Below, piece after piece: positions 8,556-61,566 of a stretch of 64,000 nucleotides of DNA; position 1 is the first letter of the stretch, and the number at the start of each line of letters is the position of its first letter. Source of the stretch: Octopus sinensis (lineage: Eukaryota). A program made the translations under genes and the position numbers. The stretch covers positions 54,498,001 to 54,562,000 of the forward strand of contig NC_043014.1 of the NCBI RefSeq assembly GCF_006345805.1, given 5' to 3'. The notes under the pieces were generated by a model, which searched no databases, was not told where the DNA came from, and saw nothing but the letters and a program-made list of their open reading frames with translations.

Positions 8556-8590
8556 GTTTCCGATGAAGAGCTCCGCTCGAAACGTTAAAC
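8556..8590 (+). ncRNA. Minimal hammerhead variant (CCGAUGA core) in a short element of about 200 bp between (TA)n tracts (about 8472-8690)
   Basis: Reads GUUU CCGAUGA A GAGC-ucc-GCUC GAAA CG UU AAAC. Stem I is GUUU/AAAC and the stem III position holds the palindrome AACGUU. Confidence 0.65.
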
Positions 8591-9667
8591 CCTCCTTCTT
8601 CCCTTCTTTCCTGAGCATCCAATAATACTATACTTGTTCCACGTCCTTGCGTTGTTGTGTTTTTTTGTGTTTTCTTGTTTGGACTAACTTTATATATATA
8701 TATACATACATACATACATAAGATACAATTCATGGATGCTCTGGCTGTCGAAACTCAGCCAGATCAAGATTGGAGCCTGGTGCAGCCATCTGGTTCGCCA
8801 GCCCTCAGTCAAAATCATCCAACCCATGCTAGCATGGAAAGCGGACGTTAAACGATGAAGAAGATGATGATTTCATCAAATCTTTAAGCCCAACCCCTTG
8901 TAAAAAATACCCAGTTCCCTCTGGAATGGGGCTGACATTAGGAAGGGCATCCAGCTGTTGGAAAATGCCAAAACAGACAATAGGATCCTGGGGCAGCTCT
9001 CTGGCTTGCCAGCTCCTGTCAAACCGTCCAACCCATGCCAGCATGGAAAATGGACGTTAAATGATGATGAGGATAATTTCTAGCTGCTGCTGTTAAGTTT
9101 AATGTGGGAAAAGTTTTAATACCAGTCACACAGGTGGTAAGCATAAATCGCATTTGCAACGGAAACCAGTTCTTTTGGGGAAATAAACTCTCTTTCTCTC
9201 TCTCACACACACACACATACACACACACACACACATACTCACACACACATACACACTCACACAAACACACACACACACACAAACACACACAAACACACAC
9301 ACACAAACAACACACACACACACACACACACAAACACACACACACACACACACAAACACACACACACACACACCACACACACACACAAACACACAATAAC
9401 CTAATTCTTGTTTCAACCTGATACTTCTTGCTTCTTTTTTTTTTTTTTTTATCTGTCATCTTACACAGGAAGGTGGGAACATGAGGACCAAAAGAGCTGT
9501 CTGTGTGCATGGAACAAATTGCCACGTCTGCTTTTTCTAGGAGAATGAGTGACCATGTAGAAGAGCCCTTGTCAGAAGTTTATCAGTGGTTGTGTTTGTG
9601 GTTCCTGGTGTAAATTAAGAAACCAAGTTATAAAGAAAAAAAAATATATATATATATATATATATAT

Positions 9668-9978
9668 CATCATCATCATCGTTTAACGTCCGTTCTCCAT
9701 GCTAGCATGGGTTGGACGGTTCGACCGGGGATCTGGGAAGCCAGAAGGCTGCACCAGGCTCCAGTCTGATCTGGCAGTGTTTCTACAGCTGGATGCCCTT
9801 CCTAACGCCAACCACTCCGTGAGTGTAGTGGGTGCTTTTTACGTGCCACCTGCACTGGTGCCAGGCGAGGCTGGCATCGGCCACGGTCGGATTGGTGCAT
9901 TTTACGTGCCACCTGCACGGAAGCCAGTCGAGGCGACACTGGCTTCGGCCACGATTCGGATGGTGCTTTTTACGTGCC
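9668..9978 (-). mobile_element. SINE family D (Meta-domain-like core GGTTGGCGTTAGGAAGGGCATCCAGC, (GAT)n tail)
   Basis: Many copies: about 7305-7530 (+), 8735-9070 (+), 18105-18235 (-), 24100-24620 (-), 30845-31360 (+), 34892-35048 (-), 35972-36570 (-), 42120-42490 (-), 44530-45027 (+), 47370-47518 (+) and 60478-60725 (-). Confidence 0.8.
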
Positions 9979-11397
9979 ATATATATATATATATATATAT
10001 ATATATCACCGTGACCGACCAGGCTATCAGATGTTGCTACACATCGCTGGTCACAATGCGCTTTGCATTGTTTTAGCCTTCAATGACGCCACCCCGCTGG
10101 CTAAGCAAGCAGGCCAACAGAAGAAAGATGTGGTTTGTAAACTGGGAAACCTTCACCAACATCGTGGTGAAGAAAGAATGGTTATATGAAAGCAAACTCA
10201 ATTTCATCCACCCCAGGCAGATAAATAAATAAATAAATAATAATAATCATGTAGATGTGCAGTTCCAGGCAGTTATTGACCTGTTGAATGGTCCCATTGA
10301 TCCCCAGGGGTTGATATCGACCAGTTTGGAGACCCCTGCTTTAAAACATTGAATTTGTTTTATAGATTAGGGGTTAATCTCATGTGGATTGGTTTCAAAA
10401 AAGGTTTCTTTTCCAGGCAGCTGGAACTAAGGTGCATTTTCATCATGCCAAACCCCAAATTTCTGTACCCCTTCCCCCTTTAACTGCCTAACCCCTAACC
10501 CCGTTTTCAGAAAACTTTTGCAGACTTTTGACCAAGGGACATAACTCTTGATAGCGCATTTATTAGGTTCGTTTCGTCTATTTTACACAGCACCCACAAA
10601 CTGGTTTTCGTATTTCACCTCCAGTAATGGAAAGCGGTCACCATATTTCCCCCCATAACTGCCAGCTCTGATAAGCACACGGTATTACATAACTGTGTTG
10701 TTATATAACTTATGTAGGTCCTTGGTGTTACATTTCTGTGTTCCTGCCAATGGCATCAATCGAGTTGGGTGGACTTTGCCCCCCGCATCAGGGTGTGAAA
10801 GTCTAACATGACCTGTTTTTGTGGTGCTATGTTGTTGACCATCAGAAAGACATCCTAACAAGCAAAATAAAAGCCTTGTGTGTCTGTAACAAGCTTCAAA
10901 ACCTCTAGCAATCAAATATTTCAAAATCAATTAGGTCAGGCCTTCTTCAAGGCATCTATACAGAGTTTTTTTCTCAATGAAGCTGAAATCAGCCGTGAAA
11001 AAGGAGAACTTCCAAATCACTTTGATGGTATGTACATCAGGCTTTGCATAAGAACTCAAAACATCTTATAGCATGGGCTAAAGACAAAAAGAAGATTTGT
11101 AAACACACTCCACCCACCTCTTTCCCTAACAAACAAACCTATCAGTTGTTTGTAGAGAGTGTCTAGTTATTAATTACTGCTCTAAAAATTCAATGTTCTT
11201 TCTTTGATGCTTACAAGTCTCTTAATTTTCACATAAGCATCCAGATGTTTCTATAATCTGTGGGAATAAATTATTCTAATTTCTTTAAAAAAAGAAACTG
11301 CTACTAATTCAGCTGTTGCTGGTTTCATCTGGAATTCTCTCTCTCATATTCTCATATATATGTTTGTGTGTGTGTGTGTGTTTGTATATATGTATGT

Positions 11398-11789
11398 TTT
11401 TTACTCTTTTACTTGTTTCAGTCATTTGACTGCAGCCATGCTGGAACACCGCCTTTAGTCGAGCAAATCGACGCCCAGGACTTATTCTTTGTAAGCCCAG
11501 TACTTATTCTATCAGTCTATCTTTGTGCCGAACCGCTAAGTTAAGGGGACATAAACACACCAGCATCGGTTGTCAAGCGATGTTGGGGGGGTACAAACAC
11601 ACACACACACACATATATATATATATGCGACGGGCTTCTTTCAGTTTCCATCTACCAAATCCACTCACAAGGCTTTGGTCGGCCCGAGGCTATAGTAGAA
11701 GACACTTGCCCAAGGTGCCACGCAGTGGGACTGAACCCGGAGCCATGTGGTTGGTAAGCAAGCTACTTACCACACAGCCACTCCTGCGC
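11398..11789 (-). mobile_element. tRNA-derived SINE family B (GGCGCAGGAGTGGCTGTGTGGTAAGTAGC head, CORE-like ACCTTGGGCAAGTG, internal microsatellite, (AAAAGAGT)n tail)
   Basis: Near-identical copies at 12585-12988 (-), 14095-14478 (+), 14720-15128 (-), 18286-18688 (-), 24955-25366 (-), 27193-27530 (+), 28149-28566 (-), 30449-30836 (-) and 39045-39522 (+). Older copies at about 13905-14062, 16050-16460, 25560-25712 and 26350-26518. Confidence 0.9.
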
Positions 11790-11903
11790 ATATATATATA
11801 TGTGTATATATATAGTTGAAACTTATAGAAAAACGAAAGACGAAGACAGGTGTATAAACAACAAGCTGGTGTATTAGTTTGATGCTTGGGAAAATGAAAA
11901 AGT

Positions 11904-60291: not shown

Positions 60292-60328
60292 TTCTCAATG
60301 TTTTGGACACAAGTCCTTCATCAGGTTG
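60292..60328 (-). ncRNA. Degenerate hammerhead; related copies at about 61939-61975 (-) and 51030-51066 (-)
   Basis: Minus strand reads CUGAUGA A GGAC-uugu-GUCC AAAA CAUUG. The other copies keep GAAA but have damaged stems. The flanks at about 60175-60325 and 61835-61970 are homologous. Confidence 0.45.
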
Positions 60329-60960
60329 TTGTCTCCAATTCTGAAAATATTTATTGGAATAAATATTTTTGACACCATACAAACACCATTCTTTCCAGTT
60401 GTATGTGTGCATGCGAAAGTGCATGTGTATATGCATGTATGTTTTATATACATACATATATATATATATATATATATCATCATCATCATCATCATTTAGC
60501 GTCCGTTTTCCATGCTAGCATGGGTTGGACAGTTCGACCAGGGTCTGGTAAGCCATGGAGGCTGCACCAGGCTCCAGTCTGATCTAGCAGAGTTTCTACA
60601 ACTGAATGCCCTTCCTAACGCCAACCACTCCGTGAGTGTAGTGGGTGATTTTTACGTGCCTCCAGCCACGATCGGTTGGTGCTCTTATGTGTCACCGACA
60701 CAGATGCCAGTCGGGCGGTGCTGGCATCTGATCAAGGGTATGAAAGGTATTGGTGTCAGGAAGACCCAAAAGGTATCGAGTAAACGCTAAGTAAGTACTA
60801 TGGATAGACCATGGTTAAGCTCCAGGCTTGATAATGATATGAGTCAGGAGTTCAATGTGGGTCATGTATTAGCATGTATATATATATAGATTGACAGAAT
60901 GAGATAAAGAAAAAAAAATCCAAGGCAGTAAATAGATTTCAGAACATTTATAAAGAAAAG

Positions 60961-61008
60961 GTCTTACAGCTGTTTCGGGGATATTTTTTATACCCCTTCA
61001 TCAGAGAC
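60961..61008 (-). ncRNA. Minimal type I hammerhead ribozyme with intact core
   Basis: Minus strand reads GUCU CUGAUGA A GGGG-uauaaaaaauau-CCCC GAAA CAGCUG UA AGAC. Stem I is GUCU/AGAC, the core is canonical, stem II is G4/C4, stem III is the palindrome ACAGCUGU, and the cleavage triplet is GUA. Confidence 0.85.
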
Positions 61009-61495
61009 GGTGCGAGAAAATGTTTGAGTTTTAATTATTGTAGAAAATTATTGGGAAATAAGAGAATTTATATAGAAGTGAGATACATAAGGATATTGTA
61101 TTTGCAGTTCCATTATTCAAGTAGACTGGTGTATGTAAGTGGTGAAAAACTTTTTTTGGTGAAGAAACTTTCTTGTACCCGGTGTGTAGTTTCCATTGAT
61201 AGTTATATTTGGTCATTCCAAGCATACAGCCTTGTAAAACATGTTGGTCACTCGAGGGGTTTTAGCTTAAATTTATAGAAAACAAAATTGAAGACAGGTG
61301 AAGAAACAACCACCGGGTGAATAGTTTACTGTTTGGGAAGAAAGGAAAAGTCTTTGACGTTTCAAGCCTACGTTCTTTGACAGAAAGGACCGAGAGACAA
61401 AAAACAGAGAGAGAGAAAAATGTGTGGGGATTAACAGTTCAATATATATATATATATATATATTAAATAAACCTCGCTAAGATAAATATTTCAAT

Positions 61496-61566
61496 TAACC
61501 TGAAGATTGACTGTAACCACAACTTGAATTATTACGAATTGTACAGTCATGAAACGATCATAGTGT
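61496..61566 (+). ncRNA. Hammerhead-like motif
   Basis: Reads AAC CUGAAGA U UGACUGUA-(26 nt)-UACAGUCA U GAAA CGAUCA UA GUG. Stem II is a perfect 8 bp, stem III is near-palindromic and stem I is weak. Confidence 0.6.

What the first reader, a model, noticed from the sequence alone, without database searches (positions are those of the whole stretch)
8556..61566. About a dozen hammerhead ribozyme motifs from many unrelated short element families
Seen in sequence: type I HHR folds at 8556 (+), 11904 (-), 30086 (+), 34617 (-), 35340 (+), 47833 (+), 55982 (-), 60961 (-), 61352 (-) and 61496 (+), plus degenerate ones at 51030, 60292 and 61939. Their stem sequences differ, but all share the CUGANGA/GAAA core layout and a self-complementary stem III (AACGUU, ACAUGU, ACAUAUGU, ACAGCUGU, AUCAAUUGAU). 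The carriers are 150-400 bp non-coding pieces, usually next to (TA)n. Established knowledge: minimal type I HHRs with palindromic stem III, which cleave as dimers, mark Penelope-like element (PLE) terminal repeats and non-autonomous retrozyme-like elements. Inference: this genome carries a large, diverse population of ribozyme-bearing PLE-derived elements, here about one per 5 kb, that is probably poorly catalogued.
Basis: partly seen in the sequence, partly recalled or inferred. Interest (0 to 1): 0.85.

Follow-up and report, generated by a model that had tools for sequence, protein, structure and literature searches.

The report
Penelope retroelement tails with hammerhead motifs
This stretch of animal DNA holds about fifteen short, mostly decayed pieces with the layout of a small self-cutting RNA (hammerhead), likely the tail ends of Penelope-type jumping genes, which is a known pattern; one piece has two paired core letters swapped, a natural variant I did not find in print, and cutting is untested for all of them.

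Summary
The motifs are at the stated coordinates and exceed chance: 4 exact-core hits against 0.175 in shuffles, and 9 against 0.27 with a relaxed score. Most are damaged. Six of the 10 main motifs keep the exact core and only 60961 is intact throughout. The 13 fall into about 10 families. Three of four motifs tested are highly repeated in four public runs, and the majority letters mostly restore pairing. They match two published Penelope-like element (PLE) hammerhead types. A near-identical motif lies 35 nt behind a PLE RT/GIY-YIG frame in an outside locus (L003). The window has no PLE coding remnant and no tandem hammerhead array, so these are best read as 5'-truncated, often head-to-head PLE tails beside (TA)n, not retrozymes. 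Such populations were described in 2014, and an octopus PLE hammerhead in 2021. I did not find G3-C8 in print as natural, but one key paper was unavailable. Verdict: real, known kind, one notable variant.

The parts
8472..8690 (+). carrier stub of about 220 bp between two (TA)n runs; holds the hammerhead at 8556-8590 (U4C; stem I 4 bp, stem II 4 bp, minimal stem III, U17)
   Evidence: aligns base for base with the L001-L004 motif
11904..11939 (-). minimal hammerhead, decayed (A6U, G12A); carrier about 11815-11941, tail ends at (TA)n
30086..30130 (+). hammerhead with exact core and 6-bp stem I, weak stem II; probable, decayed
   Evidence: expected 0.083 per window
34474..34889 (.). head-to-head inverted insert; hammerhead at 34617-34688 (-), exact core, Hydra-like layout; the partner arm begins at about stem III
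35233..35467 (.). head-to-head inverted insert; hammerhead at 35340-35422 (+) with G12A; the inverted arm keeps GAAA
47833..47891 (+). hammerhead with exact core, 10-nt palindromic stem III and G at the cleavage site; only weak Rfam match (HH9, 15.6 bits vs cut-off 52)
51030..51066 (-). degenerate minimal hammerhead (C3U, damaged stem II); same family as 60292 and 61939
55980..56041 (-). hammerhead with exact core, 8-bp stem II, imperfect stems I and III
60292..60328 (-). degenerate minimal hammerhead (G12A, 5' stem I lost)
60961..61008 (-). the one fully intact minimal hammerhead (exact core, A17, stems I and II, 8-nt palindromic stem III); highly repeated family that extends at least 250 bp upstream in a minority of copies
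61352..61387 (-). decayed copy of the 11904 family (A6U, G8A), 5'-truncated just above stem I; highly repeated family
61497..61567 (+). hammerhead with exact core, 8-bp stem II, truncated inside stem I; the majority letter at 61560 makes stem III a perfect palindrome
61939..61975 (-). degenerate minimal hammerhead (C3U); not high-copy at 80% likeness
   Evidence: (expected 0.18)
46985..47203 (.). head-to-head insert with the 3' half of a Hydra-like hammerhead on each arm; 5' core doubtful
47519..47633 (.). short head-to-head insert with the 3' half of a Hydra-like hammerhead
   Evidence: read by eye
7851..7934 (-). doubtful extra candidate: exact core, but a competing 13-bp hairpin dominates the fold
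   Evidence: expected 0.23

Best explanation
The motifs are mostly decayed hammerhead folds that likely mark the 3' tails (pseudo-LTRs) of about a dozen Penelope-like retrotransposon families, left as short 5'-truncated stubs beside (TA)n. Shown here: hammerhead layout above chance, high repetition of three families, downstream (TA)n, head-to-head pairs, and no ORF in the window. Inferred from published PLE biology: the GIY-YIG nuclease of an autonomous element nicks AT-rich DNA, its reverse transcriptase starts in the tail and usually stops in or just past the structured hammerhead, and a second inverted truncated copy is often added. In the parent element the ribozyme would cut tandem precursor RNA weakly, as a dimer or with help from the element's protein. 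The single and head-to-head stubs here are predicted to be inactive relics.
For: Excess over shuffles. Match to the published metazoan PLE consensus: U-rich 5' flank, CUGANGAH, G10.1-C11.1, palindromic 15.2-16.2 (PMC4209133). Six window motifs align without ambiguity to L001-L004, which carry the published Acropora Neptune motif or a close variant. In that alignment 6 of 8 pairs change on both sides and 82.5% of cells pair, against 15-46% when slid (the rows were chosen for their fold). In L003 this motif lies 35 nt behind an RT-thumb/GIY-YIG frame. Several other motifs share the long stem III and the U before GAAA of Hydra-clade PLEs, 26 of 27 of which are listed with a (TA)n preference. Summed contig depth in run X1 is 300,000-335,000 over 60961, 71,000-115,000 over 61352 and 110,000-490,000 over 61496, against about 30-60 for unique-looking pieces; runs X2, X3 and X7 show the same profile. 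Five of 6 listed majority letters inside the three motifs improve pairing or lie in loops. Six short inverted inserts carry whole or half motifs, as described for PLE insertions.
Against: No PLE coding remnant in the window: 0 of 193 open frames reach a Pfam cut-off, and two home-made PLE profiles gave best E-values of 0.38 and 0.9 while positive-control loci scored to 1e-124. So no window family is tied directly to an autonomous element. None of 12 short motifs was found in the published PLE consensus file. The majority letter at 61547 breaks a stem II pair unless 61510 also changes, and that row was among 66 not shown. Summed contig depth is not a copy number, and its peak on the hammerhead could partly reflect conservation across subfamilies. 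The 61939 motif is not highly repeated at 80% likeness. No cleavage or expression data.
Confidence: 0.82

Rival explanations
1. Some carriers are self-standing non-autonomous mini-elements (hammerhead plus a 70-130 nt tail) that amplified as their own unit, possibly through small circular RNAs, like non-LTR retrozymes.
For: Depth over the 60961 hammerhead and tail is about 20-fold above the region just upstream. Most window copies begin in or within about 10 nt of stem I. Retrozyme families include many monomers and derive from PLE termini (bioRxiv 10.64898/2026.07.22.740005).
Against: No hammerhead lies in any tandem array of the window. Paired copies are on opposite strands and would fold into long hairpins of -120 to -235 kcal/mol. 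Contigs show the 60961 and 61352 families continuing upstream (tables 7 and 8), as expected for truncation. Helix sizes are minimal, not canonical.
Confidence: 0.12
2. The motifs are chance matches in AT-rich, palindrome-rich repeat DNA.
For: With one or two core mismatches the shuffle background rises (call 17B: 6 vs 1.8, max 5). Five of the 13 are not significant alone. Most monomers do not fold better than shuffles (z between -0.2 and -1.9 for 10 of 13). No Rfam hammerhead reaches its cut-off.
Against: Exact-core excess, zero high scores in the reversed sequence, depth peaks on the motifs and majority letters that restore pairing, near identity to a published PLE motif.
Confidence: 0.03
3. 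The host keeps some of these ribozymes to process its own transcripts.
For: One copy (60961) is intact, and domesticated hammerheads are known in amniotes.
Against: Twelve of 13 copies carry core or stem damage. Minimal PLE hammerheads did not cleave as monomers. No host gene was identified around them.
Confidence: 0.03

Closest known systems
Minimal hammerheads (min-HHR) of metazoan Penelope-like elements (Cervera and de la Pena 2014, PMC4209133)
   Same: Type I layout, unpaired base after A9, short helix I, palindromic positions at stem III, many heterogeneous families per genome, mostly single copies, some pairs on opposite strands 100-700 bp apart, U3-A8 variant.
   Different: No octopus entry and no G3-C8 core among the alignment rows I read. 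Here no family is yet tied to an ORF.
Hydra-clade PLE hammerheads, including Hydra-1_oBim of Octopus bimaculoides (Craig et al. 2021, PMC8557442, File S2)
   Same: Longer stem III, U before GAAA, (TA)n targets, short tail behind the ribozyme; 62070 has the same stem III letters as Hydra-1_oBim.
   Different: Stems I and II and flanks differ, so these are other families; none of 12 short motifs was found in the supplement.
Neptune-type PLE tail of Acropora (published motif; loci L002-L004)
   Same: Same core, spacing, 4-bp stem II and CG stem III as 8556, 11904, 61352 and the 60292 family.
   Different: Stem I letters differ with pairing kept; the flanks show no evident likeness by eye, so shared type is shown, not direct descent.
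Non-LTR retrozymes (Cervera and de la Pena 2020, PMC7229834; bioRxiv 10.64898/2026.07.22.740005)
   Same: Short non-coding carriers with a type I hammerhead, PLE-related.
   Different: Retrozymes are head-to-tail repeats with a ribozyme in each unit, giving circular RNA; none is seen here.
Poseidon element of Anolis carolinensis, PAc (Frangieh et al. 2024, PMC11167929)
   Same: Model for AT-rich nicking, internal start of reverse transcription and protein-assisted hammerhead cleavage; the engineered C3G/G8C double mutant partly restores cleavage.
   Different: There G3-C8 is a laboratory mutant and the ORF starts inside the hammerhead.

Membership tests
PLE minimal type I hammerhead | CUGANGA / GAAA / UH core in type I order | tested here: met
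   Exact in 6 of 10 main motifs (one with G17); 1-2 substitutions in the rest.
PLE minimal type I hammerhead | Unpaired base between A9 and stem II; G10.1-C11.1 closing pair | tested here: met
   The descriptor without the extra base found none of the 13; with it they appear. G-C closes stem II in the short type; Hydra-like ones have U..U instead.
PLE minimal type I hammerhead | Palindromic stem III / loop 3 | tested here: met
   Perfect in 8556, 11904, 61352, 34617, 35340, 47833, 60961; restored by the majority letter in 61496; imperfect in 30086 and 55982.
PLE minimal type I hammerhead | Family consensus with conserved core and compensatory stem changes | tested here: inconclusive
   Between-family covariation seen (selected rows). 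Within families only 40 of 106 difference rows were shown; 5 of 6 inside motifs are compatible with the fold, one is not resolved.
PLE minimal type I hammerhead | Self-cleavage as dimer or with protein help | not testable with these tools
   Needs in vitro assay.
Penelope-like element | RT plus GIY-YIG ORF upstream of the hammerhead | tested here: inconclusive
   Absent in the window, where carriers are too short to hold one; present for the same motif type in L003, and for a published Hydra-type motif in L063 and L064. No host genome was available.
Penelope-like element | 5' truncation with adjacent inverted copy | tested here: met
   Six short inverted inserts with whole or half motifs; opposite-strand joints in contigs (table 5).
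Penelope-like element | Insertion bias for (TA)n / AT-rich DNA | tested here: met
   10 of 16 vs 3.2 expected.
Non-LTR retrozyme | Head-to-tail tandem repeats with a hammerhead in each unit | tested here: not met
   No motif inside any tandem array of the window; the rest of the genome was not searchable.
Non-LTR retrozyme | Abundant small circular RNA | not testable with these tools
   Only contigs were offered; no raw RNA reads.
Rfam hammerhead families | Score at the gathering cut-off | tested here: not met
   None among the 150 of 225 matches listed for the window; 0 of 26 in 60200-62100; one HH9 match at 15.6 bits vs 52 in 47700-48420.

The most novel reading that the evidence does not exclude
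The insert at 48142-48419 comes from an animal Penelope-like family whose hammerhead naturally uses a swapped G3-C8 core pair and still cleaves. With canonical and U3-A8 families beside it, one genome would hold three states of the 3-8 pair, and standard CUGANGA searches would miss a whole class of animal hammerheads.
Probability: 0.5. Interest if true: 0.55.

Novelty: new member of a known kind. Interest (0 to 1): 0.33.

Why it matters
As given, the finding extends a known pattern to another genome: many families of Penelope tails with minimal hammerheads that Rfam does not detect. Such stubs could help classify short unlabelled repeats. The G3-C8 insert matters more. If it is the family consensus and cleaves, it is natural covariation at the catalytic 3-8 pair in an animal, evidence of selection for cleavage in elements whose ribozyme was dispensable for insertion in vitro, and a reason to widen search descriptors.

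Tried and rejected
No whole genome is held for the window, so genome-wide counts and consensuses could not be made. Rfam found only microsatellite-driven microRNA matches and one weak HH9 match. A descriptor without the extra base after A9 missed all 13 motifs. Pfam scans of 193 stop-free frames of at least 55 aa gave nothing at cut-off; a Pfam scan of read-through translations was not obtained. Profiles from 69 Neptune-like and 60 of 120 Hydra-like proteins found no remnant; a by-eye likeness of 61150-61260 to a Hydra C-terminus was not significant and is dropped. Pattern scans for window motifs: 1 locus in metagenome contigs, none. A loose G3-C8 pattern gave 58 prokaryotic or viral matches, 4 of them with a stem I of 4 or more pairs, all four in GC-rich loci, treated as chance. 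A covariance model from six window motifs plus L001-L004 found one independent motif (60961, E 0.003) and two hits (15668, 8854) that lack the core and were rejected. No RNA holder was listed for 60200-62300, which says nothing on expression. The CUGAUGA matches inside the abundant SINE (36070, 44941, 47422) lack the fold. Earlier notes held nothing for this genome or for two of its sequences. Lunse et al. (PMC5785218), the paper on small PLE hammerhead variants, is not held; supplement file 1 of PMC4209133 was not searchable.
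Full report
Setting. The window is AT-rich animal DNA crowded with microsatellites and SINE-like repeats. It resembles octopus DNA; that label is recalled from the look of the repeats and comes from no call. Four coded organism labels hold parts of 60200-62300. No whole genome is held.

Observation. All 13 positions show stem I, CUGANGA, stem II, GAAA, short stem III, UH, stem I'. 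A descriptor without an unpaired base after A9 found none of them. With that base allowed and an exact core there are 4 hits against 0.175 in 40 block shuffles; with one core mismatch 6 against 1.8. A relaxed score gives 9 hits at 30 or more against 0.27 in 30 shuffles, and none in the reversed sequence. A score for exact-core motifs puts 34617, 60961, 47833 and 55982 above every hit in 60 shuffles, and 61496 and 30086 at 0.07-0.08 expected per window. I built these scores after seeing the motifs, so the figures are indicative. Five motifs (11904, 61352, 51030, 60292, 61939) are not significant alone.

State of the copies. Six of the 10 main motifs keep the exact core; 47833 among them has G17, which strongly impairs minimal hammerheads (PMC3884650, passages). 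Only 60961 is intact in core, cleavage site and all stems. 11904 and 61352 are one family, and 51030, 60292 and 61939 another, so the 13 represent about 10 families. Rfam does not detect them.

Family evidence. I laid contigs of four runs on 60740-62060 at 80% likeness. Summed depth in X1 is 300,000-335,000 over 60961, 71,000-115,000 over 61352 and 110,000-490,000 over 61496, against 29-62 for the listed long pieces; the other three runs show the same shape. The tool warns that this is no copy number, but three motifs clearly belong to highly repeated families. 61939 stays at 34-61. Of 106 difference rows 40 were shown, six of them inside the three motifs. 60993 turns a wobble into a Watson-Crick pair, 61373 restores stem II, 61560 makes stem III a perfect palindrome, 61525 improves an outer pair and 61520 is in a loop. 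61547 breaks a pair unless 61510 also changes, which was not shown. Depth falls about 20-fold just upstream of 60961, while some contigs continue about 250 bp further, as expected for 5' truncation.

Anatomy. (TA) runs of four or more units lie within 200 nt downstream in 10 of 16 motifs, against 3.2 expected from nearby positions. Most copies start in or just above stem I. Six short inverted inserts carry whole or half motifs on their arms: 34474, 35233, 46985, 47519, 48142 and 62074. The two arms face opposite ways, so one transcript would hold a single sense ribozyme inside a long hairpin, not a cleaving dimer. No motif lies in a tandem array.

Link to Penelope-like elements. The window has no PLE coding remnant. 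A pattern from two window motifs retrieved loci L001-L004; L002-L004 look like animal host DNA inside bacterial bins (my inference from their content). In L003 the motif lies 35 nt behind a frame with a GIY-YIG match (E 2e-4, just under the Pfam cut-off) whose relatives carry RT and GIY-YIG domains. The motif of L002 and L004 equals the Acropora Neptune hammerhead in the supplement of PMC4209133 from stem I to stem I'. Six window motifs align to it column for column, with paired changes on both sides in 6 of 8 pairs. Other window motifs resemble Hydra-clade hammerheads, and 62070 has the stem III of Hydra-1_oBim from Octopus bimaculoides. Loci L063-L065, fetched with a published Hydra motif, show mixed hammerhead families behind PLE ORFs next to (TA)n, and L004 holds three motifs in 7.8 kb (loci selected for one motif). 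So density of this order is not unique.

At 48142-48419 both arms begin with a hammerhead fold whose core reads G3 U G A A C8 A: stem I 6-7 bp, unpaired base, stem II 5 bp, GAAA, AU-rich stem III, U17, then a tail of about 85 nt, which on the right arm ends at (TA)n. It scores above every shuffle hit (eight core types were tried, and one mismatched control type also gave one hit above its shuffles). The minimum-energy fold gives stems I and II. The arms are 91% identical and stem from one event, so they count once. Two transversions at exactly the paired positions, with the rest of the core kept, suggest that the source element had G3-C8; this is inference. Against activity: the fold pairs G3 with U17, like the C3-G17 trap, and the arms differ by one A after GAAA. 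I could not test the family. At 62070-62255 both arms carry U3-A8, a variant already reported in PLEs and elsewhere.

Mechanism. Published work on the anole Poseidon element shows nicking of AT-rich DNA, internal start of reverse transcription, hammerhead cleavage only with the element's protein, no need of cleavage for insertion in vitro, and partial rescue by the C3G/G8C double mutant (PMC11167929, parts 1-2 of 4). Minimal PLE hammerheads did not cleave as monomers and cleaved weakly as dimers. Applied here by inference, the stubs are aborted insertions that kept the tail and the ribozyme and then decayed.

Prior knowledge. PMC4209133 (main text parts 1-3 of 4; supplement file 2, parts 1-2 of 3) reports about 2,000 to 9,000 such motifs per genome, heterogeneous families, mostly single copies and opposite-strand pairs. 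PMC8557442 (passages; supplement searches and parts 2 and 52 of 59) describes inverted truncated copies and lists an octopus Hydra element. PMC7229834 (passages) and the 2026 bioRxiv preprint (part 1 of 5 and passages) define retrozymes as tandem repeats. PMC13282606 (passages) lists 31 recently active Penelope-like families in Octopus vulgaris and does not use the words ribozyme or hammerhead in its main text. PMC6765202, PMC3088659 and PMC6155905 were seen as passages only. Searches for a natural G3-C8 core and for hammerheads in cephalopods found no such report, but Lunse et al. was seen only as a reference and may bear on this. Unchecked notes from this scan describe similar stub populations and G3-C8 cores in phages and protist elements; they are leads, not support.

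Verdict. Real motifs, more decayed and somewhat more numerous than stated; most likely truncated Penelope tails of a known kind (0.82). Interest 0.33, carried mainly by the G3-C8 insert.

Noticed in passing
window 11904-11939 and 61352-61387 (-): Both copies of this highly repeated family have U at core position 6. If that is the family consensus, it amplified with a non-canonical core; the relevant row was not shown.
   Followed up: partly
window 21231-21893: Tandem array of 3.6 copies of a 184-bp unit of an abundant SINE-like repeat, with an inverted copy at 22345-22808 and another at 39727-40131; no hammerhead found in it.
   Followed up: partly
window about 51150-53500 (-): By eye, a decayed RTE-like LINE reverse transcriptase ending just upstream of the 51030 motif; no Pfam support in stop-free frames.
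   Followed up: no
window about 3600-5800 (-), 23650-23900 (-), 26700-27200 (-): By eye, remnants like a Tx1/L1 end, mariner transposase, an R4/NeSL-type endonuclease end and an RTE end; family names are recalled.
   Followed up: no
window 47826-47905 (+): Stem I of the 47833 motif may extend through an internal loop by six more pairs, closer to a canonical type I hammerhead.
   Followed up: partly
window 29912-30294: The 30086 motif sits between 73-bp inverted repeats (93% identical) that may belong to another element.
   Followed up: no
window 24494-24617: 124-bp palindrome inside a SINE-like repeat; no hammerhead core recognised.
   Followed up: partly
window 31372-32609: 1.2-kb (CTT)n array and many long (TA)n and (ATCT)n runs; a 100-N gap at 50822-50921.
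   Followed up: no
L002-L004, L063-L065: Contigs filed in bacterial genome bins hold animal-type Penelope elements and microsatellites, probably host contamination.
   Followed up: partly
head-to-head inserts 34474, 35233, 46985, 48142: If transcribed they would form long double-stranded hairpins (-120 to -235 kcal/mol), possible substrates for RNA editing or silencing; speculation.
   Followed up: no
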